Position numbers and translations under genes: made by a program
Source: a virus
Direction: 5' to 3' (one strand)
Length of the DNA stretch: 64,000 nucleotides
Virus record (IMG/VR): IMGVR_UViG_3300030419_006925
Location: 1 to 64,000 of that record
In this document: in pieces, positions 7,975-64,000 of the stretch
Position numbering within the stretch: the first letter of the stretch is position 1
How the letters are laid out: each line of letters starts with the position of its first letter
Notes under the pieces: generated by a model
Database searches by the model: none
Told to the model about the DNA's origin: nothing
Seen by the model: only the letters and a program-made list of their open reading frames with translations

Positions 7975-8521
7975 TTAGATCTCCTGCTTTTGCTACTACT
8001 ATGGCATCCGCCCGATCATATGATTCTGGCTTCGGATTACCAAATTTTGTATACTCTACATGAAATGCGGGCTCTATTTCAAGAAGGTGTTTTAAAACCA
8101 CTTCTTTTGCCTTCTGGCCGCGTTTCACCTTAATACCACAATGCTTGCGCGCAGATGTAGCTGCGATGTATTGTGGCTCAATTTCGAACATTTCATAAAT
8201 AAGCCACGAAACAACACCATTGAAAGTCATAAGTGTAGAAAGGGTCTTGGCTGAGGATTTACCTCTCATGAACATGTGCAGTGGTTGTTCGATATATATG
8301 TGTTTGATTGGGAATTTTGATTCACCCCATCCTCCGGTATCTTCTTGGTCTAGTTGGTAATTTTCAAACAAGTCTTCAATATATTCTTTTAAGACGGTCG
8401 CTTTTTTAAAAATACCCTCATGTTTTCTCAAATCGATGGAGCTATAGTGCAACAATTGGCCTTCTGCTGCCACCGCAAACCCAGTAATACTTGTCGAAAT
8501 ATCGATACCTAAAACCATCAA
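7949..8521 (-). CDS. RuvC-like Holliday junction resolvase
   Basis: RNase H-fold motifs LGIDIS..TG, IYIEQP and C-terminal DRADA. Confidence 0.85.
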   Translation of the reverse strand: MMVLGIDISTSITGFAVAAEGQLLHYSSIDLRKHEGIFKKATVLKEYIEDLFENYQLDQEDTGGWGESKFPIKHIYIEQPLHMFMRGKSSAKTLSTLMTFNGVVSWLIYEMFEIEPQYIAATSARKHCGIKVKRGQKAKEVVLKHLLEIEPAFHVEYTKFGNPKPESYDRADAIVVAKAGDLIEKSVELD

Positions 8522-9954
8522 ATATCCATTTTTAATTTAAATGTAAGATCTTGATCTTCTTTTTTCAAAACAGGATTGGCCAAAGTGGCAATCCCTATCA
8601 AGTTTTTGTTATCATCATACACCGCAATCTTTGAAATGTATACCTGTCTTTTAAAAGATGCGCTATGATCGCTATAACTGGAACTGACCGTGTTTTTGAT
8701 CATCCTTTTGCTGTTCTCTTCGTAAACATGGGAGGACGTGAACGCTAGTTGTTCTTGGTTGTAGGCTATGTACGTTGGATTGTTTGAATAATTAACCTTT
8801 CCTCTTGGTGCGTGTGCGTGCAGGGTCATAACTTGGGTTGTGGTTTCGCCCTCAAAAGATAATCCAAAGGAAGCCTTCTTGAAAATTGTGGGTCCGCCGG
8901 AACCAACATTATCTTCATTGACATCATCTCTAGCGCCGGCGCCCCAAAGTGTCCATTTTGGCTTTTGTGTGTCATTGGAGCTATTAGGTATCAGTGTTAC
9001 ACTCTTTGCTGAGTGCATTTCCCAAGAGCCAGTTAGAAGTATAAATCCCTCATTATATAGCACAACCCCCGCAACCGATCCGGATCCCAAACCAGATGGA
9101 GAGGATGGCGTAGCCTGTTGTTGTATCAGTTCCCCGTTTTTCTTGCTGTCCTTTAATTCAGCAATCAGTGAGCCAGTGTAGTACCACTGCAGGCTTACAG
9201 AGCCCGGGCGGATCCTTTTACCATAAAAAATTGAAGGAATGTGGATTAAGTTGAGTGTCTGTTGATCTTTATCCCAGCCATCTCCGTAACTTGAGGAAAC
9301 CAAATAGTGAGGGCTTATGCCCCCGTACAGATTGAGAATATTTCTCAATGACCAATAATTCATGTTGTGGCTGCAGCCGGCTGTGTCCTTGCATGCTGGG
9401 CCGGTCGCTCCTTCTGCATCGACATCAGATGACGCCGAAGGAGTTGTTATATATTCTCTTTTGATCGTCGCCCACTGCGGGTAGCTTCCAGTTAATATAT
9501 CCCCATATTGAAATTCATTATCATAAACTGTGCCGGAAATGGTAGAACCCATTTTCAAACTAATGCGCGAACTGTCCTTATGTACGTAAGGATAGATTGG
9601 CGGACGATTCGTGCCTCGGGCTGCGGCCTTGGCAGCGGTGGCCGCGGCGTCTGGCGAGGGTCGATTGGCAATATACATAGTTGAGGCCGCTCCGCCGCGG
9701 GTGCCGAGGTCGGCGCGATCTACTTTAGAATACGTAGGGACATCAATGTTATATTCATACAGGCTGATGAAACCAGATGATGCACTATAGCCAGCGTCTA
9801 GATCCCCCAAGACATTCTTGGCAAACGCGGCAGAACTGGACCCCGGCTGATTGTTATAATATATCTTACTATCATAAATGAAGAACTCACTCCGAGGGTA
9901 AGTCTTCATGGTGTTTATATTAACATCATTTTTGCCAAACTTGCGGTAAGGCAT
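8518..9954 (-). CDS. Virion structural protein (baseplate/tail-fibre attachment-like C-terminus)
   Basis: C-terminal VYISKIAVYDDNKNLIGIATLANPVLKK...KLKMDI; paralog of 9957..11072; rich in TGS/SSS/SAS. Confidence 0.65.
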   Translation of the reverse strand: MPYRKFGKNDVNINTMKTYPRSEFFIYDSKIYYNNQPGSSSAAFAKNVLGDLDAGYSASSGFISLYEYNIDVPTYSKVDRADLGTRGGAASTMYIANRPSPDAAATAAKAAARGTNRPPIYPYVHKDSSRISLKMGSTISGTVYDNEFQYGDILTGSYPQWATIKREYITTPSASSDVDAEGATGPACKDTAGCSHNMNYWSLRNILNLYGGISPHYLVSSSYGDGWDKDQQTLNLIHIPSIFYGKRIRPGSVSLQWYYTGSLIAELKDSKKNGELIQQQATPSSPSGLGSGSVAGVVLYNEGFILLTGSWEMHSAKSVTLIPNSSNDTQKPKWTLWGAGARDDVNEDNVGSGGPTIFKKASFGLSFEGETTTQVMTLHAHAPRGKVNYSNNPTYIAYNQEQLAFTSSHVYEENSKRMIKNTVSSSYSDHSASFKRQVYISKIAVYDDNKNLIGIATLANPVLKKEDQDLTFKLKMDI

Positions 9955-9956
9955 TT

Positions 9957-11072
9957 TTAATAATCCAATCGAACTCTAATCGCTAATTCGTTATCCACGC
10001 TCTTCTTGAGGGGTTCTGACAATTTAGCAATTGCCAACAATTCGTTCTGAGCATTATATAGTCCAACCGTTGTCACATACGATACGGGATTGTCCGAGGC
10101 TACATTCTTAACTCTGATCTTGGAGCCCGAAAGATATGTCGGGTTTGAACTATAGTTGAACGCGTTGTATCCAGCGCGACACGTAAACAAGGTTGAATTA
10201 ATTTGGGTTGTGTTGTTGAATGAGATGTTGTGAATTCTATGTCGCAAGGCGTCACAACTTCCGCTGATGGAGCCTGTGAACAACGCTTGATGAACATTGT
10301 ATGTGTTGCCGTCAATGCCGGGGCCCCAGAATGTCGAACAGGTGGTTGGCTGGTTGTTTGATGCGCCGGGTGCTCTGTCGCCCATTGGGAATACCGCAGA
10401 CGCGGAAAGCACACAAATTCCTGCTTGGTAGAAAATTACTCCATAGCCCGAACCGGTTGCTGACGTGTTGTCGTAGAGTACGCCGTAATCACCACCATTC
10501 GTAGTGTTGATCCCTGTACCATCGACACGGGCTGCGGAATCTTGCAGTGTCAAAGTGTTTCCGCCATGAACTGCTGTGTCCCATGAGCCGGAAGAGATGG
10601 TTATACTAAAGGTATTTTTCTTGATTTCGTCCTTGACGAGAAGTCTGGAGAAATCGATGAAAAAGCACTCCTTCATTGTTCCAACTTGATCTAAAACTAA
10701 GTCGTTCTCGAATGCTCTAAGGGTGGAAGTTGAACTGGTTGTGGAGCCAGTGAATCCTAAAAGAACCTGTGCATGCAAGTTGTACATGTTGATTTTCTTT
10801 GCATTTTGGGTGGCTGTCGATGAAGAAAGCGGAGAACCCGCGGAATACCCACAAGAAAGATCGAAAATATGGTTCGCGGACGAACTTAAAACAGGATAGT
10901 CATATACCGACTGGAACATCCCGTGTGTGTAATTTTTGATATTGTTTTCGTTTGGGAACGTTCCGTATGTTGCAGTTAAGATTGTTCCAGTGATTGGAAT
11001 AACCTCATGCAAAAAAGTTCTCGTTGTTGTTACATCTGATGCCGGGTTAATTGGCTGATAGCTACGTGGCAT
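9957..11072 (-). CDS. Virion structural protein (paralog of 8518..9954)
   Basis: Shared G.I/VFY..G, NYS.NPTY and YVTTVGLYNAQNELLAIAKLSEPLKK...RLDY motifs. Confidence 0.65.
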   Translation of the reverse strand: MPRSYQPINPASDVTTTRTFLHEVIPITGTILTATYGTFPNENNIKNYTHGMFQSVYDYPVLSSSANHIFDLSCGYSAGSPLSSSTATQNAKKINMYNLHAQVLLGFTGSTTSSTSTLRAFENDLVLDQVGTMKECFFIDFSRLLVKDEIKKNTFSITISSGSWDTAVHGGNTLTLQDSAARVDGTGINTTNGGDYGVLYDNTSATGSGYGVIFYQAGICVLSASAVFPMGDRAPGASNNQPTTCSTFWGPGIDGNTYNVHQALFTGSISGSCDALRHRIHNISFNNTTQINSTLFTCRAGYNAFNYSSNPTYLSGSKIRVKNVASDNPVSYVTTVGLYNAQNELLAIAKLSEPLKKSVDNELAIRVRLDY

Positions 11073-11095
11073 ATATATTCTCCGTTAAATTTTTA

Positions 11096-16351: not shown

Positions 16352-16353
16352 TG

Positions 16354-19169: not shown

Positions 19170-19186
19170 TTTTTTATTCTCCAAAA

Positions 19187-19194
19187 ATAAATAG
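19187..19194 (-). promoter_or_regulatory. Candidate late promoter CTATTTAT
   Basis: Intergenic, a few nt upstream of the GGAG RBS of 18426..19169. Confidence 0.5.
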
Positions 19195-50158: not shown

Positions 50159-50161
50159 TTT

Positions 50162-50923: not shown

Positions 50924-50932
50924 TTGTACTCC

Positions 50933-51486: not shown

Positions 51487-51848
51487 TTATATACCTCTTC
51501 CTTATCGTAAAAATAGTCTTCCTTGTCGAATGCTGTGGAACACAAAACCAACAAAATATCATTTCCAGTTAGATATTCTTGTTGAGCCCAGACCATCCTA
51601 TCGAGAAAGACTACTTTACCCGGCGTTAAAAATACGGTCTCAATGCCATCTCTGGAATGTAGCTCAACCTTGACTTTCCCCTGAACACAGAAGATGTATT
51701 GTTGATCTTCGTAGTGCCCGTGCTTTCCACGAACTTCGCCCTTGGGTGTGTCAGTAATATAATACATTCTTCTTGGAATAAACTTTAAATCAGTCAATTC
51801 CATATATCTTAAAATTCCAGTTTCTTCGGTTCCATTTTTGGATAACAT
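51483..51848 (-). CDS. FdtA/QdtA/WxcM-type cupin (NDP-4-keto-6-deoxyhexose 3,4-ketoisomerase)
   Basis: RMYYI, RGKHGH, Q..FCVQG, LLVLCS..FDKEDY. Confidence 0.85.
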   Translation of the reverse strand: MLSKNGTEETGILRYMELTDLKFIPRRMYYITDTPKGEVRGKHGHYEDQQYIFCVQGKVKVELHSRDGIETVFLTPGKVVFLDRMVWAQQEYLTGNDILLVLCSTAFDKEDYFYDKEEVYK

Positions 51849-51849
51849 A

Positions 51850-53696: not shown

Positions 53697-54397
53697 TTTA
53701 TCTCCAAAGGGGGGCTAAATTTTTTTGAGGTGCTGACAGTCCTAGAATACCCAATACTATCTCCTTTACCCCATTTAAAATTATCAGAAGCGATTTCTAT
53801 TTGTTGAATATCAGACATGTAACTACTAATCTGTTTTCTCCACCAAGGAAATTTTTTAACTGTTAGTCTTGCTGGCTCCCCGTGTTTATTGTGTGACTGC
53901 ATATGGTGTATTGCCAAAATCCATCCTTCTTTGGAGACTCTGTTCATTTCTGATAGTACGCGTAATAAATCTTCTTCCGGAATATGCTCTAAGACTAAAA
54001 AAGAGGTTACTATATCAACGGTATTGTCACCTAGTGGTATCTCTGTTGAATCTCCTTCAAAAAAAGTAATCACATCACTGGCGTATGAATCTGTTATTCC
54101 TAGACCTACACTGGCTATATCAATGCCATAGGCTTTTTTTGCACTAAACGAATTGACTGCATCGTAACAAAATTTTCCAGACCCGCACCCAATATCTAAA
54201 ATAACCTTATCCTTAAGATTAAGTCTTTGATTAATTTTTTTATCATTCACAGAATTTGTAAATAAATCATAAAAAGCACTACCATAGTTTCTTACTAATC
54301 CTTTTGGAGCTTTAGTGCCATTTGGCATTACTGTCCAATCGCATCCTTCAGAGTGTAAGTAGCCATCCACAAAACTAGTTTTTAGTTTTTCATTCAT
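53693..54397 (-). CDS. Class I SAM methyltransferase (Methyltransf_11-like)
   Basis: ILDIGCGSG, GIDI, IPLGDNTVDIV...VLEHI...EMNRV. Confidence 0.88.
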   Translation of the reverse strand: MNEKLKTSFVDGYLHSEGCDWTVMPNGTKAPKGLVRNYGSAFYDLFTNSVNDKKINQRLNLKDKVILDIGCGSGKFCYDAVNSFSAKKAYGIDIASVGLGITDSYASDVITFFEGDSTEIPLGDNTVDIVTSFLVLEHIPEEDLLRVLSEMNRVSKEGWILAIHHMQSHNKHGEPARLTVKKFPWWRKQISSYMSDIQQIEIASDNFKWGKGDSIGYSRTVSTSKKFSPPLEIK

Positions 54398-54681
54398 AGC
54401 TTAATTCTTCCCGTTAACATATCCTTAAACATAATCCAGTCACTAATCTTCGCCTTTACGGGATCACTAAATGCTGCTGGTTTATTTTTTTCAAAAAGAA
54501 AGTGGCCAGACCAAGCAAACGGATAGATCACGAATGGTGCCAGCAATAGCGACCACAATTTCATATTGAGTCCCACAATTAAGCACACATAGGATATTGT
54601 AGCCAATTGACCTACGAAATGAAGCCTACGACACCACTTATTTTGATGTAACGTTAAGTAGTGTTTATAGTATTCATCCAT
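54394..54681 (-). CDS. DUF962/Mpo1-family membrane protein
   Basis: YLTLHQ...RRLHFVG, AWSGHFLFEKNKPA; likely start near 54681. Confidence 0.85.
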   Translation of the reverse strand: MDEYYKHYLTLHQNKWCRRLHFVGQLATISYVCLIVGLNMKLWSLLLAPFVIYPFAWSGHFLFEKNKPAAFSDPVKAKISDWIMFKDMLTGRIKL

Positions 54682-55639
54682 TTCCATCTTCAAGCTCCAT
54701 AAATGTCTGTATGTTATAAAACCTTTTGTCATTTAAGTCTATGTTTCTTTTTTTAACTTCTCGCAATATTTCTCGAATTGATTCTCTCGGGTTGTATCGG
54801 GGTTGAAAATTTAACAACTCCTTAGCTTTCTCGTTTGAAGCCAAATAGTTTCGAACATCTGGCCTGTTCTGTATTTCTACTTCGATGTTTATACCGTTTT
54901 CTGAGAGTTCTTTTTCAACGTCTTCTGCTAGTTTTCCGATGGTGTAGTTTTCTCCGCAAATATTGAACACGCCGGCGATACCATGATCACAAGTAATTGC
55001 CTTCTTGTATGCTTCAGTTACATCTCGAATATCGATTAAGGGGCGCCACAAATTAGGATTATGAACAACTATTTTACCTTGCGTTAGAGCAAACTTGGTC
55101 ATTGTGTTGACCACTAAATCAAATCTCATCCTAGGAGACCAACCGCCCACTGTGCCCTTTCTCATCGAAATGGGTCTGAAGGATTCATCCTGCAGGTTCA
55201 TCAGTGAGTACTCTGCTTGTAGTTTGGAAATACCATATGGATATTGTGGATTGACCGGGCTGTCTTCAGACATAATCTTGTTATCTGTAAATCCATATAC
55301 ACTACACGAACTAGCATACACATAGCGCGGAACTCCAACTTCTTTGCTTATGAAGGCCAAAAATGACGGGGCTGCGGCGTTCTCTATAAAGTTTCTTTTT
55401 GGGCTAAAGTTGGCCATTGGGTCATTGGACAGGCCAGCGAGAAAAACTACTGCGTCGTGTCCTGCGATCTCTTCTCTGGTAAGATCCATTAGGTCTTTGT
55501 GAATCATTCTTACATTTGAATTTAGGTAGTTTCCGAACCAAAACAAATCGACTGCAGTTACTTGATGGCCCTCAGTTGCCATCTCGTTGCACAACCTAGT
55601 TCCCACATAACCTCCACCACCAGCAATTAACACCTTCAT
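54674..55639 (-). CDS. NAD-dependent NDP-sugar epimerase/dehydratase (extended SDR)
   Basis: GGGGYVG, ASSCSVYG, YGISK, RFDLVVN. Confidence 0.92.
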   Translation of the reverse strand: MKVLIAGGGGYVGTRLCNEMATEGHQVTAVDLFWFGNYLNSNVRMIHKDLMDLTREEIAGHDAVVFLAGLSNDPMANFSPKRNFIENAAAPSFLAFISKEVGVPRYVYASSCSVYGFTDNKIMSEDSPVNPQYPYGISKLQAEYSLMNLQDESFRPISMRKGTVGGWSPRMRFDLVVNTMTKFALTQGKIVVHNPNLWRPLIDIRDVTEAYKKAITCDHGIAGVFNICGENYTIGKLAEDVEKELSENGINIEVEIQNRPDVRNYLASNEKAKELLNFQPRYNPRESIREILREVKKRNIDLNDKRFYNIQTFMELEDGNG

Positions 55640-56428
55640 CTACAGACACTCTTCCCTAAATTGATCATAATATTTGTACCAAATTTTAATTGCAGCATTC
55701 TCATTCATAAGAGTAGCAAACCTGATGCAGTTTTTGTTGTTATCATCTCCGTCCCATATCGGACCCCATGGTTTGCGGCGGCCGCTGTAGTGAATTATCT
55801 TTATTAGTTCTTTGTTGTTTTCATAATCTTTTGGATCGCCCTTGCCGCCGGCGCCAAAATTTTGAAAATTATAGGCTTCAGACACGGTGCCCACATCCGG
55901 ATTATTCGGACTGAACATATGCTGACAGGTGACCTGATCTCCATCGGGCCTGTGTTTTATCCCTGTGCTTACAACCAATTCCACCATCTTGTCATAGCAT
56001 TCGCCGGTTAGGTATTTCTCTCCTGCAATCAGCAATCCAAGATTGGGATATTTCCAAATAATCTCAGTCTCATCTTCTATAAGATTAGAAAAGTCTCCGG
56101 TGCACAACATGTCGGCATCTAAATAGACGCTCCTTTTGTATCCAATTTGAGCAAAAGTCTCAAACGAAAGATAAACATCATAATTTCCAACACCATAAAT
56201 TGTTCGTGGAATATGCTCATAAAAACTAGAATCTCTCGGAGGATCAAAAATCGTATCCTTGTGTGCCTTGCGAATGAGATTCATGCTCTTTTCATTCAAA
56301 TTATTATAGGGCACCTTTATATCACATTCATCAAAAACTCTCAAATTCTTTTTTAATGAGTGAATCAGTACCGCGGCCGCTAAAGCAAAATCATCAGAAG
56401 CGGGTATGCAAATAGCATATTTTTTCAT
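55640..56428 (-). CDS. Glycosyltransferase family 8-like
   Basis: VYLDADML, DQ, YN, IIHYSGRRKPW. Confidence 0.85.
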   Translation of the reverse strand: MKKYAICIPASDDFALAAAVLIHSLKKNLRVFDECDIKVPYNNLNEKSMNLIRKAHKDTIFDPPRDSSFYEHIPRTIYGVGNYDVYLSFETFAQIGYKRSVYLDADMLCTGDFSNLIEDETEIIWKYPNLGLLIAGEKYLTGECYDKMVELVVSTGIKHRPDGDQVTCQHMFSPNNPDVGTVSEAYNFQNFGAGGKGDPKDYENNKELIKIIHYSGRRKPWGPIWDGDDNNKNCIRFATLMNENAAIKIWYKYYDQFREECL

Positions 56429-56431
56429 ATC

Positions 56432-57283
56432 TTATACCTTATTTAAATAATCGGCCAAAGGCCTTTTGTGTTCCGGGAGGCTCTCGAAATCCGATAACTT
56501 CATACGTCCTCCAAATGTCTCTCTCCATTCTGTGGGATGTATCCCATAGTATACCGTTAGTATTGTGCGCTCGCCTTGTTCAACCTTTGTTCCCTTGTGG
56601 AACCCGTTCGTATTACCCAGTATAACATCTCCGACGTCACCTTTGCATCTAATAATCCTATCTTTTCCATAAATCGATTCGATATCATTGTGTGTCCAGC
56701 GATATTTTGAGTTCCAACCATTAAATTTTTGTAGATGACTTCCGTGGACATAAGTAAAGGGACCGTTGGCGTCTGTTACATCATTGAGATAAAAGAAAAA
56801 TTTTAAAAGTCTTGGGCTATCTTTGTCGCAATGAAACAAGGTTGTTTGACCATTGCCCGGAATATTTGATTCACTTATCGTAGTAGCCTTGCTTTTTCTT
56901 AGCTGGACATTATTGATTGCGGGGAGGCAATTAAAATAGCTCTTTGCTATTTCTACAACCTCATCATCAAACGCAACATTAAAGACCGAATCACACGTTA
57001 AAAGAGGGTGTGCAACCTGTTCTGTGTAGAAATCATTGTACTGTAATTCTCCCCGAGACTTAATTAGCTCAAACTCTTCCTTAACTGCGGCTAATCTTAT
57101 AGGATCTATAAACCCTTTTATACTCGAATACCCATTTAAATTTACCTCTTCCGCCGCGTGCTTGTACGTATCGCCAATATCAACCGGGTATTTCTCCCTA
57201 CGCTCCTGAATGCATGCGGCGTATCTTTCCACTTCAGATTGACCTCCCCATGCGCATGTCGGATTTATCTTAATTTGTATCAC
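56432..57283 (-). CDS. 2OG-Fe(II) dioxygenase (PhyH-like)
   Basis: FHCD, YLNDV...GPFTYVHGSH, GD...FHKG, distal R. Confidence 0.85.
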   Translation of the reverse strand: MIQIKINPTCAWGGQSEVERYAACIQERREKYPVDIGDTYKHAAEEVNLNGYSSIKGFIDPIRLAAVKEEFELIKSRGELQYNDFYTEQVAHPLLTCDSVFNVAFDDEVVEIAKSYFNCLPAINNVQLRKSKATTISESNIPGNGQTTLFHCDKDSPRLLKFFFYLNDVTDANGPFTYVHGSHLQKFNGWNSKYRWTHNDIESIYGKDRIIRCKGDVGDVILGNTNGFHKGTKVEQGERTILTVYYGIHPTEWRETFGGRMKLSDFESLPEHKRPLADYLNKV

Positions 57284-58113
57284 TTTCTACATCCAAAGTA
57301 TTTTCTTCTAACTTCTGGAAAATCATCAAACATGTGAAATTCAAACTTAAGTTTTTCCAAAAGGTCCAATTGTTGTAGATGATATTTCACTAATTGATGA
57401 TTTGAAATACGGCCGCTGGCGTCAGTTCTGCAATTTTCTGGCTTATTGTATTCGTCTAAATGATCATACAGCGAGAAGAAGTCTGATGAATTCTTAGAAT
57501 TCGCAAAAAACCAGAGGTCTAAAAACCCCTCATCATTGATTGGATAACCCTTGGTGGTTCTCTTAAGCTCTTTGAGCATTGGATGCCGGGCCTGTATTAA
57601 ATCATATAATGGGCCCCGACCTCCTTTGAATAAATCGGTTCCATTTCGATCAACAACCGCAGACCACTTGCCGGCATAAAAATATTCATTATCAAAATTG
57701 TCAAAAATCACATCAGTCTCAAATGCCAAATCAAATCGAGTTGTCATAACGTAGTCATATTTAAAATCATTTTCTTGTTCATGTTTTTGTCTAAGCTCGT
57801 TGACTATTTTGTTAGAATACCACCTACTATAGTGGTTATTTTTGCGTGTATCCTCCCCCTTTACATAATCTGGTATATCGAAGTATATCTGTTCTTCGAA
57901 AAGGCTCTTGGTGGGATTATAAAGCTCCAAAGTCTTATCTTCCAATTCTTTGTCCCAGCAATGCACAAAAACATCAACATCATTTTTGTCAAGTATGTGT
58001 CTTTGGTAGTGTTCGTGCCCTTTTATGAGTACTCTAGGATCTGATTCGAAGAAACCTGATTTTCCTTGTATATTGCCTATTTTTCCACTAAGACATAGTG
58101 CTACTTTACTCAC
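57280..58113 (-). CDS. Putative glycosyltransferase-like protein (VALCLSG...RFD type)
   Basis: KVALCLSG, DVFVHCW, YDYVMTTRFD; this type recurs in polysaccharide loci. Confidence 0.55.
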   Translation of the reverse strand: MSKVALCLSGKIGNIQGKSGFFESDPRVLIKGHEHYQRHILDKNDVDVFVHCWDKELEDKTLELYNPTKSLFEEQIYFDIPDYVKGEDTRKNNHYSRWYSNKIVNELRQKHEQENDFKYDYVMTTRFDLAFETDVIFDNFDNEYFYAGKWSAVVDRNGTDLFKGGRGPLYDLIQARHPMLKELKRTTKGYPINDEGFLDLWFFANSKNSSDFFSLYDHLDEYNKPENCRTDASGRISNHQLVKYHLQQLDLLEKLKFEFHMFDDFPEVRRKYFGCRK

Positions 58114-58477
58114 TTAAAAACTCCTTGATATCTGATAATTTGTTTACGTTTTCGGAATTTAGCGCCTTGTCATCAATCAACAGATCATAATGAATCTTGC
58201 CCATGACCAATTGATCAAACTTGACTCCCCAGTTTTTTAACTGCTCAAAGGTTATATCATATAAATTTGAATATATATCATTTACATTACCAGCGAAACT
58301 GGTCATGCCGCGGGCTGTGTACACTATAATTTTATTGCCCTTTGCGTGACATTCGTTCACTATATCAATCATATCCTTGTTTGGTTCGCATGTGTGATAT
58401 TTTTTAATTTTTCCTTTTTCAGATGTCCTGTAACACAAGACATCATCCAAATCAAATGCAATCACCTTATTGTGCAT
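58106..58477 (-). CDS. Small HAD phosphatase (EcbF/BcbF-like), paralog of 51181
   Basis: FDLDDVL, YTARGM, MGK...IDDK. Confidence 0.85.
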   Translation of the reverse strand: MHNKVIAFDLDDVLCYRTSEKGKIKKYHTCEPNKDMIDIVNECHAKGNKIIVYTARGMTSFAGNVNDIYSNLYDITFEQLKNWGVKFDQLVMGKIHYDLLIDDKALNSENVNKLSDIKEFLSE

Positions 58478-59457
58478 AAAATTTCCTCTATTCTTTGATT
58501 GATTTTTCTTTTAATCTTTGAGTCTATGTTTGGGTATTTCCCTTTTATCTCTTGAAACTCGGGGTTTGCAAAAACATAATGGCCCGATGTCCTTATTATA
58601 GCATACTTTCTTATTTCGTTTACGCTAAAGAGCGCTTTTGCAGGAAGCCATTTTTTCCACTTGTCTGATTCATAACAAAGAGAATACAGTTTTTGGAACG
58701 ATTTTTCATCAAAATGATTTAAAATCTCTTCAATCACACACTGTGTTTCTATTGCTCCAAATTCGGGAGCAATATTTATAGCGTCTAATCCCAAATCAAA
58801 TCTGTTTTTAATCTCCTCTGGGGATAGATAATCTCCATTGTGTTCTTTCGACAAGACACCAAAGTTTTTACAGGTCTCAATCATTTTTGAACAACGCTCT
58901 TCGTCGTATTCGCCTATATTTCGATTTCCCTCAATTCTGGTGCCACCTTGTATAACCGCATATTTAATCTGCGCAAAGGCGGGGCCTAGTATTTTTTTCA
59001 AATCAAATAAGATCTTTTCAAATTCTCTGTGTGAGTATTTTCGAATTGCCTGTTCTGTGCCAATTTCATATAGGCAATTCGAATTTACGCGGTTGCAGGC
59101 TTTGATTAATTCGGCGGTTGCGTTAATTCCGTCTTCTATATTAGTATATTCCTTCCAAGGATCAATATGTATCAGATCAAAACAGGCTTTTGCATCAGCA
59201 ATTAGTGATTGTTTTCCATCATCCATAGTCTTTCCTTGGGCTGGGCCGGCGTGATCTCTTTCTATAATCACCTTGTCTGTTCTATTTCTAACATAATCAA
59301 CAAATTCGGCTGTGGTCCAATTGTTTACGTAGCCGCCGTCATGTTCTATTTGGCGGCGAGATGGGATTAGTCCGATTATATCATCAGAATTGTTGCATTT
59401 TTCAATGACCACATCTACTATATTCTTGCTCATTGGTCCAATAAAAAGTTTAGCCAC
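58462..59457 (-). CDS. GatZ/KbaZ-like TIM-barrel enzyme (putative ketose-phosphate epimerase/aldolase-like)
   Basis: GGY, RDHAGP, IHIDP, EIGTE, KEHNGDY, NIAPEFG parallel the GatZ/KbaZ motifs GDHLGP, IHLD, IGTE, EAHSTDY, KVGP. Confidence 0.65.
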   Translation of the reverse strand: MAKLFIGPMSKNIVDVVIEKCNNSDDIIGLIPSRRQIEHDGGYVNNWTTAEFVDYVRNRTDKVIIERDHAGPAQGKTMDDGKQSLIADAKACFDLIHIDPWKEYTNIEDGINATAELIKACNRVNSNCLYEIGTEQAIRKYSHREFEKILFDLKKILGPAFAQIKYAVIQGGTRIEGNRNIGEYDEERCSKMIETCKNFGVLSKEHNGDYLSPEEIKNRFDLGLDAINIAPEFGAIETQCVIEEILNHFDEKSFQKLYSLCYESDKWKKWLPAKALFSVNEIRKYAIIRTSGHYVFANPEFQEIKGKYPNIDSKIKRKINQRIEEILCTIR

Positions 59458-61036
59458 GATTAGCCTCCAATAAATTATATAAACTTTGCTTGCCTAAGTA
59501 AAACAACATCTTGGAATAAGGATAATGATGCAGTGGTGCAATATTTAAAAAGATGAGCGATGTCAATAATTTAACTTTGTAGATATCTAGTTCATTATCA
59601 TGTAAAAATTTTATAAAATCGGCTTCATTCTCAACAAGAGAGTGTTTTCTATAAAAATCATATCCTATCACGTTGTCCGTCTGCTTAACATTATAACACT
59701 CTTTGTTAATAAGTTCATGTGAAACAATCAATCCGTGCAACAATTTTGCCAAATCATAATAAAGATCGCCATATGCTTTGATTCCTGCGAAATTTTGGCG
59801 CCAATCTAAAAGACAGAATTCTCCAGTTTCAGCAACCAAGATATTTTCAAAATGCAAATCCCCATGCATTCTCACTGGTGTTCCCATGGAGAGGTTTTCC
59901 CAATCTACTTTGCTAAGTAAGGCTTTAACGGGAGGGATCTTTTGTCCATTGATTGTTTCAACAAGATCCTGCTCCGAAAAACGATTAAAATAAAGTTCCA
60001 CCCTTTTTTCCGTCTTATCTTTATAAAATTTATTACAAGCACTCTTGAATTTTTTTTGTTCCTGCTCGTCTAATGCTTGTTCAGTCCAGAAATCTTCCAA
60101 AAACGATAACAGTCTTTTGAACGTATTTTTATTTGTAACCTTTGATAGTGTTTGACCTGTTATCATCCTATATGAATACATGTTCTTTCGGAAGTCTAAG
60201 ATTTCCGGCACATATCCCTCAAGGCGCTTGGCTCGGTCGATGCGATCTAGGATAAAGTCTGGATCACTATTGTATTTAATGGCGCGGCCGTTAACAAACC
60301 ATATGGCTTCATTTGGCTTTTCCAGAATCTCCGGCGCATTTTTAGATTTTACGATTTCTCTGGCCGCCTTTAAGCTTTCTAAATTGCCTGTGTCGTACCA
60401 AGTAAACTTCTTAGCCTCTATCAGAGAGTTTCGTTTTACCATTTCTCGGAGGGCGTACGATTCACCGATACGAATTGAACCGTACTTCTTACCAGATTCC
60501 ATCGAGTTCCAAAATTCTTTATAATCCTTGATCCCGGCCAAGCCAATATAGGGCTTTGTGTCGTATGATAAGATTTCATCCTTCTCACATATCCTTTCAA
60601 CACAGCTTGACTTTGATACCTTAAAGGAGCGATAGTTCTGATTGTTTTCGACTTCAGCATATCCAACCCAATTTGTTGTTGGTTCGGGTACTTCCTCTAA
60701 AATCACTGTATCATTGGGGCAAAAAATGAACGGGCACTGTAGGTGCTCTTTGCATTCCAGTATCGTTAGACCAAGACCGGAGCCACTACCGCAATAGTTC
60801 TTTATTTTGACGCATGTAATTTTTCTGTCTGGGTGGGCCATCTCAAGATAATCGCGCAGCAAGTCACCTTTGTGCCCTAGGGCTATAACTATTTCTATCT
60901 CTTTTGGAAACTTCTCAATAACATGAGAGATAACCGGCTTATTGTCGAGAGATACGAGGGCTTTGTTGAGATTCTTGCTAAAATCTCCCAGTCGTGTGCC
61001 CAAGCCGGCTGATGGTATTAGCACTTTATAATTCAT
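59450..61036 (-). CDS. Sugar-phosphate nucleotidyltransferase fused to APH/choline-kinase-like phosphotransferase
   Basis: N-terminal PSAGLGTRL...NKAL and WYDTG; C-terminal HGDLHFENIL, LLDWR, YYDLAKL. Confidence 0.88.
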   Translation of the reverse strand: MNYKVLIPSAGLGTRLGDFSKNLNKALVSLDNKPVISHVIEKFPKEIEIVIALGHKGDLLRDYLEMAHPDRKITCVKIKNYCGSGSGLGLTILECKEHLQCPFIFCPNDTVILEEVPEPTTNWVGYAEVENNQNYRSFKVSKSSCVERICEKDEILSYDTKPYIGLAGIKDYKEFWNSMESGKKYGSIRIGESYALREMVKRNSLIEAKKFTWYDTGNLESLKAAREIVKSKNAPEILEKPNEAIWFVNGRAIKYNSDPDFILDRIDRAKRLEGYVPEILDFRKNMYSYRMITGQTLSKVTNKNTFKRLLSFLEDFWTEQALDEQEQKKFKSACNKFYKDKTEKRVELYFNRFSEQDLVETINGQKIPPVKALLSKVDWENLSMGTPVRMHGDLHFENILVAETGEFCLLDWRQNFAGIKAYGDLYYDLAKLLHGLIVSHELINKECYNVKQTDNVIGYDFYRKHSLVENEADFIKFLHDNELDIYKVKLLTSLIFLNIAPLHHYPYSKMLFYLGKQSLYNLLEANRG

Positions 61037-61920
61037 ACTATTGTGATCCCTGCATAATCATCTTTATCATATCCGAAGTTGTCAAAATCTTCTTTATAAA
61101 ATTCATAAATCTTATTTGCTGTTTCTTGGGTCATTGCTCTTGACAGTTTTTGGCTCTCCTTGAAAGATGCATTATTTCTACCGAGAGATAACGGCTGCCG
61201 GTTGATTACCTCTTCCACAAAACATATTCCTATTTCGTTTTCTAATCTCTTCCAATCGTTTTCAAAATTTTCAAATCTACCAACAAAATCAACATTATGA
61301 TGCTTGGGAAGAAAGAAAGACTGATTTTTAATGTGGTTATCTTTAAACGTGTTCGTGTATACTTGTTCTACAAATGAATCAAAAACTAAAGCACCCTTTG
61401 ATGCTGTCTCCATGGGATCAGAATCAAAAGCACGAAACATCTTATAAGCAGAAAATAGCCTGTCATAAGGATTTCTCACAAAACCAAATTTGAAGTAATT
61501 TCGAAAAGATCTCTCGCCGGTTATCGGCGGGGCATCCGACGCGCGGGTGCCAGATGGCTTCAATTGAAGGCTCGGGGCGCGCTCTGCATTCATGCGAGCC
61601 TCTTGGCTTTTCCAATATTCCCACTTAAGAGTTGTCAAATATTTTAAATTCTTGACGGCGTCTTGTGGGTTTTTTTCAAGCCACGACATTAAGCTTGGAA
61701 TTTTCAACATTTCCTTTATAGATGAAGAAGCTGACTTCGGATTCAAATAACATGCTATCTTGTTCTCGTGATTAAGAAATAAGGTTTCCCACGGGCCGAG
61801 AGCGGGATGTTTCAATACTTCTCTTTGGAGGATCCTACCCCATGGCGAATATTGAGTACGCTCTTCTATAATAAAAGTGTAGTCTTCTGAATATCTCTTT
61901 TCTGTTTTCCACTCTGGCAT
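61033..61920 (-). CDS. Carbohydrate sulfotransferase (Sulfotransfer_2 family)
   Basis: 5'-PSB NPKSASSS, 3'-PB FVRNPYDRLFSAY, H...Q, VGRFE, YKEDF..FGY. Confidence 0.88.
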   Translation of the reverse strand: MPEWKTEKRYSEDYTFIIEERTQYSPWGRILQREVLKHPALGPWETLFLNHENKIACYLNPKSASSSIKEMLKIPSLMSWLEKNPQDAVKNLKYLTTLKWEYWKSQEARMNAERAPSLQLKPSGTRASDAPPITGERSFRNYFKFGFVRNPYDRLFSAYKMFRAFDSDPMETASKGALVFDSFVEQVYTNTFKDNHIKNQSFFLPKHHNVDFVGRFENFENDWKRLENEIGICFVEEVINRQPLSLGRNNASFKESQKLSRAMTQETANKIYEFYKEDFDNFGYDKDDYAGITIV

Positions 61921-62018
61921 TATACTACAAACCCTCCGTAATCGGCCCTATTGTATCCGAAGTTGTCAAAATCTTCTCTATAGATTTCATAAATCTTGTT
62001 TGCTGTTTCTTGGGTCAT
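61070..62018. repeat. 65 bp direct repeat, copies at 61070-61134 and 61954-62018
   Basis: 61/65 identical by manual alignment; encodes MTQETANKIYE.Y.EDFDNFGY in both sulfotransferases. Confidence 0.85.
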
Positions 62019-62702
62019 CACTTTTTGTGGTATTTGTTCTTTTTTCAACTTTGCGATCGCCGAACCATAGGGTTCTGGTTGTTTTTTGGTTGCTTCTTTC
62101 ATAAAGCGTATTCCTATGATTTTCTGCAATTTATGCCAATCGTCTGAGAATCTTTCAAGCTTTCCGATAAAGTCGATAGATTTTGGAATATGCCTACTTT
62201 GTCGATTAATGTGAGAATCAAGTTCGACTATTGGGCGCGTTGTGCGCCAGCCAGACCACTCTTGAGCAGAGAGTTCGATGCCCGGTGAAAGGTTAACATG
62301 ACCATTGGGGGGACCCTCAAGGAAGGGTCTGAACGATGTCTGGCCACAATACAGGCTGTTTATAAAATTATCAAAATTGGTTTTGCTAATTTCATTCCAT
62401 GGAAATCTATTCTTCCATGAAGGGCAAAACTTAAACATCTTATATGCTGAAAATATCCTCTCATATGGATTTCTTACAAATCCGAATCTAAACGGTCTAA
62501 AATGTTTTAAATTTTCTGCGATCGCTGATCGATCTATTGCTATAAAATATTCGTTGTCGGTGCGCCACTGCCAGTGTGTGTCCGTCTCCAACACCTCCCT
62601 CATTGATGTAGAAGCCACTTTAGGATTCAGGTAGACATACAAGGCATATTTATATTCTCTGTGGGTTATCTCGAAATCCATGCGCTCACCTTCGATAATC
62701 AT
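61920..62702 (-). CDS. Carbohydrate sulfotransferase (Sulfotransfer_2 family), tandem paralog
   Basis: NPKVASTS, FVRNPYERIFSAY, IGKLE, YREDF..FGY. Confidence 0.88.
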   Translation of the reverse strand: MIIEGERMDFEITHREYKYALYVYLNPKVASTSMREVLETDTHWQWRTDNEYFIAIDRSAIAENLKHFRPFRFGFVRNPYERIFSAYKMFKFCPSWKNRFPWNEISKTNFDNFINSLYCGQTSFRPFLEGPPNGHVNLSPGIELSAQEWSGWRTTRPIVELDSHINRQSRHIPKSIDFIGKLERFSDDWHKLQKIIGIRFMKEATKKQPEPYGSAIAKLKKEQIPQKVMTQETANKIYEIYREDFDNFGYNRADYGGFVV

Positions 62703-63027
62703 CCTCTAATCTGACGATATCATCTTCTCCAAAATAGGTTCCACATTGAACCTCAATAAACACCAAATCATCATCACCGGTGTTCTTAATTCTGTGGCTG
62801 GCTCCGATTGGGATGTGTACGTGCTCGCCTACTGAAAGTTCTAGGTCCTCCCCGTTGAGGGTGACTGTTGCGTTGCCCTGCACGATAACCCAATGTTCGC
62901 TACGTTTATGGTGGTATTGGTAACTTGGACGGTGGCCGGGCTTGATAATCAACCTCTTTACTTTGCAATATTCCTCGTCTAGTAGGTTTTCAAATGTGCC
63001 CCATGGGCGCTCTTCAGTATAATTCAT
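62686..63027 (-). CDS. Mannose-6-phosphate isomerase type II C-terminal cupin
   Basis: RPWG, VKRL, SYQYHHKRSEHW, HRIKN, IEVQCG.YFGEDDIVR; likely start 63027. Confidence 0.9.
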   Translation of the reverse strand: MNYTEERPWGTFENLLDEEYCKVKRLIIKPGHRPSYQYHHKRSEHWVIVQGNATVTLNGEDLELSVGEHVHIPIGASHRIKNTGDDDLVFIEVQCGTYFGEDDIVRLEDDYRR

Positions 63028-63035
63028 TGTAGTCC

Positions 63036-63851
63036 TTAGTGTCTTGCGCTCCAAGCCAACGTTGGATCCGGATTTACATACCCGGGTACCTCATAACTCG
63101 TTGTCCACTCGGGGCTAATGTATCGTGGTGGTTTTTCTATTGTTGGTTTAACGCGTATGTTAACAACATCTCTATATCCCTCTATAATGGGATTAACCCT
63201 GTGAACTGCATTATTGATAAATGATATAGCCGTTCCCTTAGAACCTATGACCTTGTTTGCGTTAAATCCCTCTTTCAGTAATTTTTCTACTTGTGGACCA
63301 ACTCTGGAATTGTTGGGCGCCGGGTACCAATGAGACGGGCCGAGGCGGGTACATTGACCCAAGATTCCTTTATCATTTGGTGCCATCAAATATTCGAATG
63401 GAGAGTTGTCCAAAGTAACGTCATTTAAATAAATCAATGTTTTGATAACTTCATTTGGATTATTATCATAATGCCACTCATATGATGATACCCTCTTATC
63501 TAAAGGTAGAGTCCTGTATATGTAAACCTTGTCAACATATAGATTACAGTAATACTTTGTCTTTTCTAGATAAGGTATTATAATATTTGATAATTTCGTT
63601 AATTCTTCAGTAAATTTCCATATGTTAGTGTGCTTTATTAGCACTCCATCGTCATTCGAGTCTGTCATTGAATCAAAATCTCTTTTTGTTTTTTGAGACA
63701 GTGCTTCAACCATGTCGCGATATTCCGAAGTAAATTTATCTATCGGAAGCATAATCACAGGATTGCCATAAAATCTTTCGTGCTCAAATTTACTTTGATT
63801 TGTTAAAGCATAATTTTCACGACAAAGCTTATAGTATTCATCATAATTCAT
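63036..63851 (-). CDS. 2OG-Fe(II) dioxygenase-like protein
   Basis: WHYD, IYLNDV...PFEY, G..GT...VHR, distal R. Confidence 0.75.
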   Translation of the reverse strand: MNYDEYYKLCRENYALTNQSKFEHERFYGNPVIMLPIDKFTSEYRDMVEALSQKTKRDFDSMTDSNDDGVLIKHTNIWKFTEELTKLSNIIIPYLEKTKYYCNLYVDKVYIYRTLPLDKRVSSYEWHYDNNPNEVIKTLIYLNDVTLDNSPFEYLMAPNDKGILGQCTRLGPSHWYPAPNNSRVGPQVEKLLKEGFNANKVIGSKGTAISFINNAVHRVNPIIEGYRDVVNIRVKPTIEKPPRYISPEWTTSYEVPGYVNPDPTLAWSARH

Positions 63852-63863
63852 CTATTCCTCTCG

Positions 63864-64000
63864 TCATGAATAACAAACGTAATTTGCTCTATATCCAGTT
63901 GAATATGCATCATACACATATAAAAGTCGCACTATCTTAAAGTATTTTTGCAATTCATTTTGAACAACCATTGGATCTAGATTCATTGTTGAATGATTCA
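63864..64000 (-). CDS. 3' end of an unidentified ORF entering from the right edge
   Basis: Open frame NHSTMNLDPMVVQNELQKYFKIVRLLYVYDAYSTGYRANYVCYS*, ending just before the RBS of 63036..63851. Confidence 0.4.
   Translation of the reverse strand, partial: NHSTMNLDPMVVQNELQKYFKIVRLLYVYDAYSTGYRANYVCYS

What the first reader, a model, noticed from the sequence alone, without database searches (positions are those of the whole stretch)
8518..64000. Candidate virion glycosylation/sulfation system: a 14 kb glycan-tailoring cluster upstream of tail proteins dense in [ST]-[GAS]-S tripeptides
Seen: four structural proteins (8518, 9957, 24344, 35058) are dense in TGS/SGS/SAS/SSS/TSS, usually after a hydrophobic residue. 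Examples are LTGSY, VSSSY, YTGSL, LTGSW, FTGSISGSC, NTGSAIVSASA, EISASTSTGS, YFTGSV and IQSASY, with more than a dozen in the 652 aa protein alone. Neighbouring large proteins (13262, 37016, 39245) have far fewer. A co-oriented cluster of GT8, aminotransferase, ketoisomerase, epimerase, methyl- and sulfotransferases and oxygenases lies upstream of the late sigma factor and tail genes. Known: some phages and giant viruses glycosylate virion proteins with their own enzymes. Inference: the tripeptide is an O-glycosylation sequon on exposed baseplate/fibre proteins, which would carry an aminated, methylated, sulfated glycan for shielding, stability or host mimicry.
Basis: partly seen in the sequence, partly recalled or inferred. 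Interest (0 to 1): 0.82.

Follow-up and report, generated by a model that had tools for sequence, protein, structure and literature searches.

The report
Serine motif on phage tail proteins
Four outer baseplate and fibre proteins of this uncultured marine T4-like phage carry Ser/Thr-Gly/Ala/Ser-Ser about four times more often than chance. The excess is conserved across a very abundant phage group that always encodes the same two sugar-transferase genes, so the motif is a plausible but chemically unproven sugar-attachment site.

Summary
[ST]-[GAS]-S occurs 93 times against about 24 expected in g8518, g9957, g24344 and g35058 (z 5 to 12). No other window ORF has more than three copies. SAS, TGS and SGS are the three most over-represented of all 8000 tripeptides. 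The motif is directional, uses mixed codons and survives local shuffles. T4 baseplate proteins lack it. Orthologues in about 80 marine contigs, Flavobacterium phage immuto and Microcystis phage Mel-JY01 keep a 3- to 4-fold excess. Some sites are fixed as a class (TAS/SSS/TSS/SAS/SGS at one column). In the giant protein most sites turn over while density is kept.

The sugar cluster is real by Pfam, but it is a hypervariable island. GT8 is absent from 14 of 14 large relatives that keep the motif. The conserved candidates are two adjacent GT4 glycosyltransferases just beyond the window (contig 70819-73343). They occur in 14 of 14 relatives and in immuto and Mel-JY01, and both keep the E-x7-E motif. 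Known DNA-glycosylation starter enzymes were not found.

Best reading, about 45%: the GT4 pair O-glycosylates the motif and the island diversifies the glycan. Nothing here shows a modification.

Earlier notes of this scan describe the same motif and transferase pair on other genomes of this phage group.

The parts
35058..37016 (-). g35058, 652 aa, the protein directly after the gp6-like wedge subunit. It is motif-rich (16 vs 5.0) and models as a chain of Ig/FN3-like beta-sandwich domains.
   Evidence: Searches give the counts. AF2 gives pLDDT 86.9. Foldseek hits are FN3, Ig and S-layer domains. 150 cluster representatives carry 1870 motifs vs 543 expected. About 12 of 16 sites lie in loops or at strand ends by my reading of the DSSP string.
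24344..35068 (-). g24344, 3574 aa giant baseplate or fibre protein with a Laminin_G_3 domain at residues 199-382. It is motif-rich (56 vs 13.6, z 11.8).
   Evidence: Orthologues carry 39-53 motifs each. 12-22 of the 34-49 alignable reference sites are kept per orthologue (32-45%), and more than half of each orthologue's motifs lie at other columns.
9957..11072 (-). g9957, 371 aa, a conserved virion protein of unknown fold. It is motif-rich (10 vs 2.3) and is a C-terminal paralogue of g8518.
   Evidence: More than 7900 database homologues. Site conservation at class level. AF2 pLDDT 64 with no PDB fold match.
8518..9954 (-). g8518, 478 aa, paralogue of g9957 and motif-rich (11 vs 2.7).
   Evidence: 77 orthologues carry 762 motifs vs 172 expected.
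37016..38812 (-). gp6-like baseplate wedge subunit. It is a motif-poor internal comparator (1 vs 1.7).
   Evidence: phrog_6 and phrog_219; counts. Wedge orthologues are also motif-poor in L001 and L002, immuto and Mel-JY01.
38827..39195 (-). gp25-like baseplate wedge subunit, motif-free.
   Evidence: phrog_261, E 9e-22; counts.
48697..49413 (-). gp55-like late sigma factor. It sits between the sugar island and the baseplate module.
   Evidence: phrog_234, E 1.1e-5. It is conserved in all compared relatives.
50162..64000 (-). Window part of a roughly 21 kb hypervariable nucleotide-sugar and transferase island. It runs on to contig position 70819 and is followed by the two core GT4 genes at 70819-72057 and 72057-73343, outside the window. 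Genes by start coordinate: FkbM methyltransferase 50162, FdtA 51483, DegT 52770, methyltransferase 53693, Mpo1-like 54394, epimerase 54674, GT8 55640, PhyH 56432, nucleotidyltransferase-kinase 59450, Sulfotransfer_2 61033 and 61920, cupin 62686.
   Evidence: Pfam. The continuation holds NeuB twice, a CMP-transferase, a 663 aa GT4 and then two core GT4 genes. Synteny and variability are shown.

Best explanation
The tripeptide [ST]-[GAS]-S, with a nearly strict Ser at the third position, is proposed to be the acceptor signal of a phage-encoded virion O-glycosylation system.

Proposed mechanism:
- Two adjacent, clade-wide conserved GT4 (GT-B fold, retaining-type) glycosyltransferases attach the first sugar or sugars in the host cytoplasm. 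They act on Ser or Thr in loops and strand ends of folded outer virion proteins. In this contig they lie at 70819-73343, just upstream of the window's sugar cluster.
- The main targets are the post-wedge Ig/FN3-like protein, the giant LamG-containing protein and the g9957/g8518 paralogues.
- In relatives, weaker targets are the outer domains of the sheath, the neck adaptor and the major head protein.
- The hypervariable island between the GT4 pair and the late sigma factor supplies unusual nucleotide sugars and extra transferases, which then build a lineage-specific glycan. In this phage the island is about 21 kb. It encodes a 3-amino-3,6-dideoxyhexose-type pathway (FdtA, DegT), methyltransferases, GT8, two sulfotransferases and a nonulosonic-acid pathway (NeuB twice, CMP-transferase).

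Shown:
- The motif statistics, their specificity, and conservation with turnover.
- The identity, conservation and synteny of the enzymes.
- The absence of the known DNA-glycosylation starter enzyme, a ThyA homologue.

Inferred:
- That the GT4 pair acts on protein, that the motif is its acceptor, and what the glycan is.
For: 1. Specific, directional, protein-level enrichment in four proteins, robust to local shuffles.

2. The proteins are not detectable homologues of one another, apart from g8518 and g9957, and they have different folds: LamG, Ig/FN3-like and unknown. This points to a trans-acting cause.

3. The excess is conserved. It is 3.4- to 4.4-fold in 77-80 orthologues each of g8518 and g9957 and in 150 representatives of g35058, while neighbouring genes sit near 1-fold.

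4. The third-position Ser is more conserved than other Ser residues: 0.77 vs 0.51 (p 0.04) and 0.58 vs 0.33 (p 0.0015). It is also higher in all four giant-protein orthologues.

5. Position 1 swaps S and T, and position 2 swaps G, S and A, exactly within the motif class.

6. In the giant protein, density is kept at 39-56 motifs per protein while more than half of the sites move. This fits a relocatable sequon.

7. T4 gp5-gp54 show no enrichment.

8. The two GT4 genes occur in 14 of 14 large relatives at 42-65% identity, adjacent to each other. They have the same synteny in immuto, and both keep E-x7-E.

9. Among 50,697 phage records, the seven that hold a g9957 homologue are exactly the top seven hits of the 428 aa GT4.

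10. Immuto and Mel-JY01 carry both GT4 genes and have motif-rich baseplate proteins (z up to 10 and 7.2). RM378 and LR756508, where only one GT4 type was found, show only weak or patchy enrichment.

11. The pair is conserved across phages with hosts from different phyla: Flavobacterium and Microcystis. That argues for a phage-intrinsic substrate.

12. No ThyA homologue was found in 5 complete relatives.

13. In sheath orthologues, 35 of 38 motifs lie in the central part of the sequence. Only 3 lie in the conserved C-terminal core and none in the first 140 residues.
Against: - There is no chemical evidence of any modification.
- The acceptor specificity of the GT4 enzymes cannot be read from sequence. 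The best matches are generic GT4 enzymes (BshA, MshA, PBCV-1 B736L), and only the donor-binding half matches.
- The co-occurrence of the GT4 pair and the motif is confounded by common descent, because it is a single clade. I found no clean loss or gain contrast.
- Several conserved, presumably external proteins lack the motif: g13262 and g11096, with orthologue ratios of 0.85 and 1.23.
- Many sites are positionally fixed, which also fits a structural role.
- A non-structural DnaB-type helicase family scores 11 vs 2.5 from two or three conserved instances, so moderate excesses can arise without any link to the virion.
Confidence: 0.45

Rival explanations
1. The motif is purely structural. It would be a small-residue strand cap, turn or helix N-cap that this clade's beta-sandwich virion domains use repeatedly, with no modification. 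Under this reading the GT4 pair and the sugar island serve another target.
For: - Sites sit at strand-to-loop and loop-to-helix boundaries in the AF2 models.
- Several sites are invariant across more than 100 homologues, for example SSS at residue 63 of g9957 in 117 of 117.
- The proteins are beta-rich.
- No modification has been shown.
Against: - It does not explain why unrelated folds in the same virion share the motif while neighbouring beta-rich structural proteins have none: g19209 0 vs 2.6, g16354 0 vs 2.1, and the gp6-like wedge 1 vs 1.7.
- T4 counterparts show no excess.
- More than half of the sites in the giant protein move while density is kept.
- The motif is directional, with a near-strict third Ser.
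Confidence: 0.25
2. The motif marks another process: a different Ser/Thr modification such as phosphorylation or acylation, or recognition by an assembly chaperone or partner protein specific to this clade's outer baseplate.
For: - The same statistics as for the best explanation apply.
- Many core genes of the clade have no assigned function.
- Position 1 swaps S and T and position 3 is a strict Ser. This shows only that hydroxyl residues matter, and says nothing about what is attached.
Against: - No conserved protein kinase or other protein-modifying enzyme turned up among the genes annotated here.
- The only conserved transferases seen next to the late-gene block are the two GT4 enzymes.
- A single chaperone recognising 56 scattered sites in one protein is not a known mode of action.
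Confidence: 0.12
3. The GT4 pair and the sugar island glycosylate phage DNA or remodel the host envelope (LPS, capsule, superinfection exclusion). Under this reading their co-occurrence with the motif is only shared ancestry.
For: - Phage glycosyltransferases are best known for DNA glucosylation and serotype conversion (reviewed in PMC12619734).
- The island's content resembles O-antigen and capsule loci.
- The co-occurrence comes from one clade.
Against: - No thymidylate-synthase homologue was found in 5 complete relatives. Such an enzyme makes the hm-pyrimidine or 5-hydroxycytosine needed by known DNA-glycosylation routes (PMC13326640).
- No TET/JBP hit was found either, but that search had no positive control.
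- A pair conserved at 42-65% identity in phages of Bacteroidota and Cyanobacteria is hard to reconcile with host-specific envelope chemistry.
- This rival leaves the motif unexplained.
Confidence: 0.15

Closest known systems
Mycobacteriophage virion glycosylation (Freeman et al. 2023, Cell Host Microbe; known to me, and seen here only as cited in PMC12619734 and PMC11256854)
   Same: Phage-encoded glycosyltransferases are encoded alongside structural genes. In both cases the proposal is cytoplasmic O-glycosylation of virion proteins, with a shielding role suggested.
   Different: In mycobacteriophages the glycans sit on the C-termini of the capsid and tail-tube subunits of siphoviruses. Here the candidate sites are a defined tripeptide scattered through baseplate and fibre proteins of T4-like myoviruses, with weaker signals in the sheath, neck and head. 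A conserved GT4 pair and a hypervariable sugar island accompany them. No chemistry has been shown here.
Serine-rich-repeat adhesin glycosylation by GtfA/GtfB (GT4) in Gram-positive cocci (own knowledge)
   Same: Two adjacent GT-B/GT4-type proteins are involved. Glycosylation is cytoplasmic and O-linked, on Ser in S-[A/V/E]-S-type contexts. Further transferases, including GT8 enzymes, extend the glycan.
   Different: SRR substrates are long low-complexity repeats exported by an accessory Sec system, and GtfB is a non-catalytic partner. Here the motif is dispersed in folded domains and both GT4 proteins keep E-x7-E. Sequence similarity to GtfA/B-type models is not significant. Only a far sub-threshold SdgA hit was seen.
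Flagellin and pilin O-glycosylation islands (Campylobacter and Helicobacter pseudaminic or legionaminic acid; own knowledge)
   Same: There is a variable island of nucleotide-sugar genes, including NeuB-type nonulosonic acid synthases and CMP-transferases. The modified Ser/Thr lie on exposed domains of a self-assembling polymer, often after hydrophobic residues.
   Different: Those systems use Maf-type transferases and have no defined sequon. Here the conserved enzymes are GT4, and the nonulosonic acid genes are part of the variable island and so are not conserved.
Autotransporter heptosyltransferases (Aah/TibC with AIDA-I/TibA; own knowledge)
   Same: Beta-rich surface proteins are O-glycosylated in the cytoplasm at many Ser sites that are recognised as a short strand-loop-strand context.
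   Different: The enzyme family (BAHT, ADP-heptose donor) and the substrates (beta-helix repeats) are different. This was not tested here.
T4-type DNA glucosylation and 5-hydroxycytosine arabinosylation (PMC13326640)
   Same: These are T4-like phages encoding GT-B transferases, and sometimes nucleotide-sugar genes.
   Different: Those systems need a thymidylate-synthase homologue to make the modified base. None was found in 5 complete relatives.

Membership tests
GT4 glycosyltransferases (Pfam PF00534 Glycos_transf_1), for the two core genes at contig 70819-72057 and 72057-73343 | Significant match to the GT4 C-terminal (donor-binding) domain above the curated cut-off | tested here: met
   PF00534 scores 46.9 bits for the 428 aa protein and 32.2 bits for the 412 aa protein; the cut-off is 26.4.
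GT4 glycosyltransferases (Pfam PF00534 Glycos_transf_1), for the two core genes at contig 70819-72057 and 72057-73343 | Conserved E-x7-E motif of retaining GT4 enzymes | tested here: met
   The 428 aa type has EGFGLATLE and the 412 aa type has EGFGLPLFE. Both are conserved in the 7 aligned orthologues of each type, including immuto and Mel-JY01.
Mycobacteriophage-type virion glycosylation | Phage-encoded glycosyltransferases present in the genome | tested here: met
   Two core GT4 genes plus island transferases: GT8 and a 663 aa GT4.
Mycobacteriophage-type virion glycosylation | Glycans demonstrated on virion proteins | not testable with these tools
   This needs glycoprotein staining and mass spectrometry of virions.
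Mycobacteriophage-type virion glycosylation | Acceptor sites at the C-termini of capsid and tail-tube subunits | tested here: not met
   Candidate sites are dispersed through baseplate and fibre proteins. The major head protein of relatives shows only a 2.6-fold excess, with just two C-terminal instances among the four orthologues.
GtfA/GtfB serine-rich-repeat O-GlcNAc system | One catalytic GT4 paired with a non-catalytic GT-B partner | tested here: not met
   Both proteins keep E-x7-E.
GtfA/GtfB serine-rich-repeat O-GlcNAc system | Substrate made of long low-complexity Ser-rich repeats | tested here: not met
   Motifs are irregularly spaced, 1-210 residues apart, inside folded domains. Block shuffles rule out Ser-rich patches as the cause.
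GtfA/GtfB serine-rich-repeat O-GlcNAc system | Sequence membership in the GtfA/GtfB or SdgA/B NCBIfam models | tested here: not met
   There is only an SdgA hit at 21 bits against a cut-off of 800. The best hits are generic (BshA, MshA) and are also below their cut-offs.
Phage DNA glycosylation systems (hmC, hmU or 5hoC based) | Thymidylate-synthase homologue that makes the hydroxylated or hydroxymethylated pyrimidine | tested here: not met
   PF00303 is absent from 5 relatives that are 96-100% complete; the control genomes gave hits. The window's own contig is only a fragment.
Phage DNA glycosylation systems (hmC, hmU or 5hoC based) | TET/JBP-type 5mC dioxygenase route | tested here: inconclusive
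   PF12851 gave no hits, but nothing rang in the control genomes either.
T4-like (gp55-dependent late transcription, gp6/gp25 baseplate) myoviruses | gp55-like late sigma factor plus gp6-like and gp25-like wedge subunits; sheath, gp23-like head protein, portal and terminase in relatives | tested here: met
   phrog_234, phrog_6/219 and phrog_261. phrog_23 sheath, phrog_138 head, phrog_213 portal and phrog_2 terminase are found in G005.

The most novel reading that the evidence does not exclude
A sequon-directed virion O-glycosylation system exists in one of the most abundant groups of aquatic T4-like phages.

- A conserved GT4 pair primes [ST]-[GAS]-S on the outward-facing baseplate, fibre, sheath and neck surfaces.
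- A hypervariable sugar island then gives each lineage its own glycan coat, a serotype-like variable glycan on the virus particle. In this phage the island could add amino-deoxy, methylated, sulfated or nonulosonic sugars.

This would be the first defined O-glycosylation sequon for phage structural proteins.
Probability: 0.38. Interest if true: 0.85.

Novelty: new variant of a known kind. Interest (0 to 1): 0.68.

Why it matters
If the motif is a glycan acceptor, very abundant aquatic phages would carry a lineage-specific sugar coat on their tails. One of these protein families alone has more than 7900 database clusters. Such a coat would affect adsorption, stickiness to marine polymers and mucus, resistance to proteases, recognition by grazers and host defences, and the interpretation of cryo-EM maps. 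It would also explain why marine phages keep large, fast-changing 'LPS-like' gene islands that are usually written off as host-surface auxiliary genes. It would give glycobiology a short, portable bacterial-cytoplasm O-glycosylation tag with its enzymes. The hypothesis can be tested directly, because two cultured relatives exist: Flavobacterium phage immuto and Microcystis phage Mel-JY01.

Tried and rejected
- DNA-level explanation: rejected, because the codons at all three positions are mixed.
- Ser-rich patchiness: rejected by 12- and 20-residue block shuffles.
- Generic property of T4-type baseplate or fibre proteins: rejected, because T4 gp5-gp54 all have z below 2.4.
- The four proteins as paralogues: only g8518 and g9957 are related (BLASTP E 2e-10 over the C-terminal 190 aa). 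No other pair is related at E 0.01.
- GT8 or the window's cluster as the conserved enzyme: rejected. GT8 is in 0 of 14 relatives and GT2 in 10 of 15 genomes including this one.
- Motif depletion in non-target proteins: an apparent ratio of 0.33 in 35 core families was a ranking artefact. The genome-wide rest ratios are 0.76-1.6, and T4 gives 1.15.
- RM378 as a clean negative: rejected. Its g9957-like p128 is not enriched, but two other RM378 proteins are, at z about 5.
- Fold identification of g9957: no Foldseek match with E at or below 0.001, VIA best Z 4.9, and no PDB profile match.
- Near-identical and protein searches of cultured phages: no DNA match, and no match for g35058.
- Literature: no paper describing this motif was found. 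The Freeman 2023 paper is not held. The 'moraphage' paper notes core glycosyltransferases in another aquatic lineage, and I did not establish any relation to this one.
- Surface accessibility could not be computed, because model coordinates are not returned.

Full report
**Setting.** All genes in the window lie on the minus strand. The window is the first 64 kb of a single 104 kb viral contig, which is a fragment. PHROGs identify several components:
- a gp55-like late sigma factor (48697-49413);
- a gp25-like wedge subunit (38827-39195);
- a gp6-like wedge subunit (37016-38812);
- a protein with a lysozyme-like domain (PHROG endolysin and tape-measure hits);
- primase, a RuvC-like resolvase and an SbcCD-like nuclease.

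The nearest cultured relatives are distant: Microcystis phage Mel-JY01, Flavobacterium phage vB_FspM_immuto, Rhodothermus phage RM378 and a 484 kb uncultured phage. Uncultured relatives are very numerous. The 371 aa protein g9957 alone has more than 7900 database homologues, many from marine surveys. IMG/VR yielded 583 confirmed loci, of which the 80 best were fetched, adding to two fetched earlier. They include complete genomes of 190-203 kb.

- [ST]-[GAS]-S occurs 11, 10, 56 and 16 times in g8518, g9957, g24344 and g35058, against 2.7, 2.3, 13.6 and 5.0 in composition shuffles (z 5.2 to 11.8).
- Every other ORF has 0 to 3 copies, and the large neighbours g13262, g37016 and g39245 are at or below expectation.
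- Shuffling within 12- or 20-residue blocks leaves z at 4.4 to 10.8, so local Ser-rich patches are not the cause.
- SAS, TGS and SGS are the three most over-represented of all 8000 tripeptides in these proteins, with p from 1e-12 to 8e-9.
- The motif has a direction: T[GAS]S is 37 vs 10, while S[GAS]T is 14 vs 10.
- The codons are mixed, so selection acts on the protein.
- L, V and F are about twice as frequent as expected just before the motif.
- T4 gp5 to gp54, including gp6, gp7, gp8, gp10, gp11, gp12, the sheath and the head proteins, show no such excess.

**The excess is a conserved trait of a phage clade.**
- Across the 82 fetched IMG/VR loci, orthologues of g8518 carry 762 motifs vs 172 expected and those of g9957 carry 656 vs 171. 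The flanking primase, resolvase, g11096 and g13262 orthologues and all unassigned ORFs sit at 0.6 to 1.2.
- 150 representatives of g35058, taken from clusters built at 50% identity, carry 1870 vs 543, with the same ratio in close and distant thirds.
- In four near-complete relatives the same orthologue set stands out. A family ranking adds the gp13-like neck adaptor (25 vs 5.6), the sheath (38 vs 18.3) and the major head protein (19 vs 7.3).
- In the sheath, 35 of 38 motifs lie in the central part of the sequence. Only 3 are in the conserved C-terminal core and none in the first 140 residues. By analogy with T4 gp18 (own knowledge), the central part forms the protruding domains.
- Immuto shows the excess in the proteins after the wedge (z 2.6 to 4.8) and in two further proteins (60 vs 20.6; 17 vs 2.8). 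Mel-JY01 shows it in at least seven baseplate or fibre proteins (z 4 to 7.2). Their wedge subunits do not.

**How the sites evolve.**
- In 117 homologues of g9957 some sites are kept as a class and not as a fixed sequence. Residue 223 is TAS, SSS, TSS, SAS or SGS in 115 of 117. Residue 83 is SSS, SAS or SGS in 98 of 117. Residue 315 is SGS or TGS in 100 of 117.
- Position 1 swaps S and T, position 2 swaps G, S and A, and position 3 is Ser in 63-77% and Thr in only 6-8%.
- The third-position Ser is more conserved than other serines in the same proteins: 0.77 vs 0.51 (p 0.04) and 0.58 vs 0.33 (p 0.0015). It is also higher in all four giant-protein orthologues.
- In the giant protein, 32-45% of the alignable reference sites are kept in an orthologue. 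More than half of each orthologue's 39-53 motifs lie at other columns, so density is maintained while positions move. Alignment error at 33-49% identity may exaggerate this turnover.

**Structure.**
- g35058 models with high confidence (pLDDT 86.9) as a chain of beta-sandwich domains resembling FN3, Ig and S-layer domains.
- About 12 of its 16 motifs lie in loops or at strand ends by my reading of the DSSP string.
- g9957 models poorly (pLDDT 64) and has no PDB match. Eight of its ten motifs are in coil or at element boundaries.
- g24344 has a Laminin_G_3 domain that itself holds several motifs.
- The motif therefore occurs in different folds. Apart from g8518 and g9957, the four proteins are not detectably related.

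**The sugar genes.** It continues beyond the window with two NeuB homologues, a CMP-transferase and a 663 aa GT4. This block is a hypervariable island:
- GT8 is absent from 14 of 14 large relatives, and GT2 occurs in 10 of 15 genomes including this one.
- In G005 the island is 4 kb. It holds GDP-mannose dehydratase, an unknown gene, a formyltransferase and a DegT aminotransferase.
- G008 has a sugar C-methyltransferase, a CAP59-like transferase, a third GT4 and Gmd.
- G009 has a nucleotidyltransferase-DHBP synthase fusion, a methyltransferase, a UDP-GlcNAc 2-epimerase and a GT2.
- Immuto has GT2, WecE, a methyltransferase, a mannosyltransferase, a PglB-like gene, an epimerase and WcaA.

What is constant lies just upstream of the island. 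Two adjacent GT4 genes sit at contig 72057-73343 (428 aa) and 70819-72057 (412 aa), preceded by a PD-(D/E)XK nuclease. The order GT4, GT4, island, three small genes, late sigma factor, baseplate is kept in all five compared genomes. In immuto the nuclease, the two GT4 genes and the island keep the same order, with the baseplate genes further downstream. Both GT4 genes are present in 14 of 14 large relatives at 42-65% identity. Both keep the E-x7-E motif.

Among 50,697 phage records, the seven with a g9957 homologue are exactly the top seven hits of the 428 aa GT4. The 412 aa type is found only in immuto and Mel-JY01, plus weak Streptomyces phage hits. RM378 and the 484 kb phage, where only one GT4 type was found, show weak or patchy enrichment. 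That gradient is confounded with evolutionary distance.

**Interpretation.** A short, directional, hydroxyl-bearing motif appears in unrelated folds of a defined subset of virion proteins. It lies in loops and outer domains, is conserved as a class, and is relocatable at constant density. This pattern fits an acceptor site for a trans-acting enzyme better than a fold signature does.

The only conserved transferases found next to the late-gene block are the GT4 pair. Their conservation in phages of Bacteroidota and Cyanobacteria argues for a phage-intrinsic substrate. The known DNA-glycosylation routes need a thymidylate-synthase homologue (PMC13326640), and none is present in five complete relatives. 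The TET search was uninformative.

I therefore favour, at about 45%, O-glycosylation of the motif primed by the GT4 pair and diversified by the island. The weak points:
- There is no chemistry.
- The GT4 acceptor cannot be read from sequence.
- The co-occurrence comes from one clade.
- Some conserved, presumably external proteins lack the motif.
- A helicase family shows a moderate excess from a few conserved instances.

Its mechanism is partly supported, and its choice of enzymes is not: the 14 kb cluster is optional. After I had found the GT4 pair, I read earlier AI notes of this scan. They describe the same motif and a conserved transferase pair on other genomes of this phage group. They agree with my results but are not independent evidence. 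One note claims that the motif occurs only where the pair is present. I could support this only weakly, because RM378 is not a clean negative. I found no published description of the motif.

Noticed in passing
contig G000 65136-68834 (L124:1136-4834), outside the window: There are two NeuB-family synthases, one fused to a cupin, and a CMP-sugar cytidylyltransferase. The island therefore also encodes a nonulosonic (sialic-like) acid pathway, next to a 663 aa GT4.
   Followed up: partly
G001 43808-45751 (L106): In this complete relative, the 412 aa-type core GT4 is fused to a C-terminal GT2 domain in one 647-656 aa open frame.
   Followed up: partly
G008 49767-50972 and G011 29403-30602: The core GT4 matches contain one in-frame TAG (G008) and one in-frame TGA (G011). 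I could not tell whether these are sequencing errors, pseudogenes or recoding.
   Followed up: no
immuto (NC_055915.1) 97658-100819 and 135075-136196: A 1053 aa protein (60 motifs vs 20.6, z 10) and a 373 aa protein (17 vs 2.8, z 9) are the most motif-dense proteins of this cultured phage. They would be good first targets for glycoproteomics.
   Followed up: partly
G005 167201-168568 and its orthologues: The DnaB-type replicative helicase family scores 11 vs 2.5. The excess comes from two or three conserved instances (WTASQT, TKSAS). This is a non-virion protein, which warns that moderate excesses can be unrelated to the virion.
   Followed up: partly
window 11096-12079 and 12158-13261: These two adjacent proteins are full-length paralogues (28% identity, E 9e-35) and are motif-poor. 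g23003 shares only their first 50 or so residues, which suggests a common attachment module.
   Followed up: no
window 13262-24325: g12158, g16354, g18426 and g19209 have few or no orthologues in the 82 related loci. g13262 and g11096 are conserved. This part of the fibre module looks like a swappable host-range cassette, and it lacks the motif.
   Followed up: partly
whole contig G000: CheckV rates this 104 kb contig as 28% complete, although the related complete genomes are 190-203 kb. An identical g9957 protein is recorded on a 173.7 kb contig. The contig holds 10 N.
   Followed up: no
G009 124375-125817 (L121:4375-5817): This is a fusion of a sugar nucleotidyltransferase with 3,4-dihydroxy-2-butanone-4-phosphate synthase in a relative's sugar island, which is an unusual pairing.
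   Followed up: no
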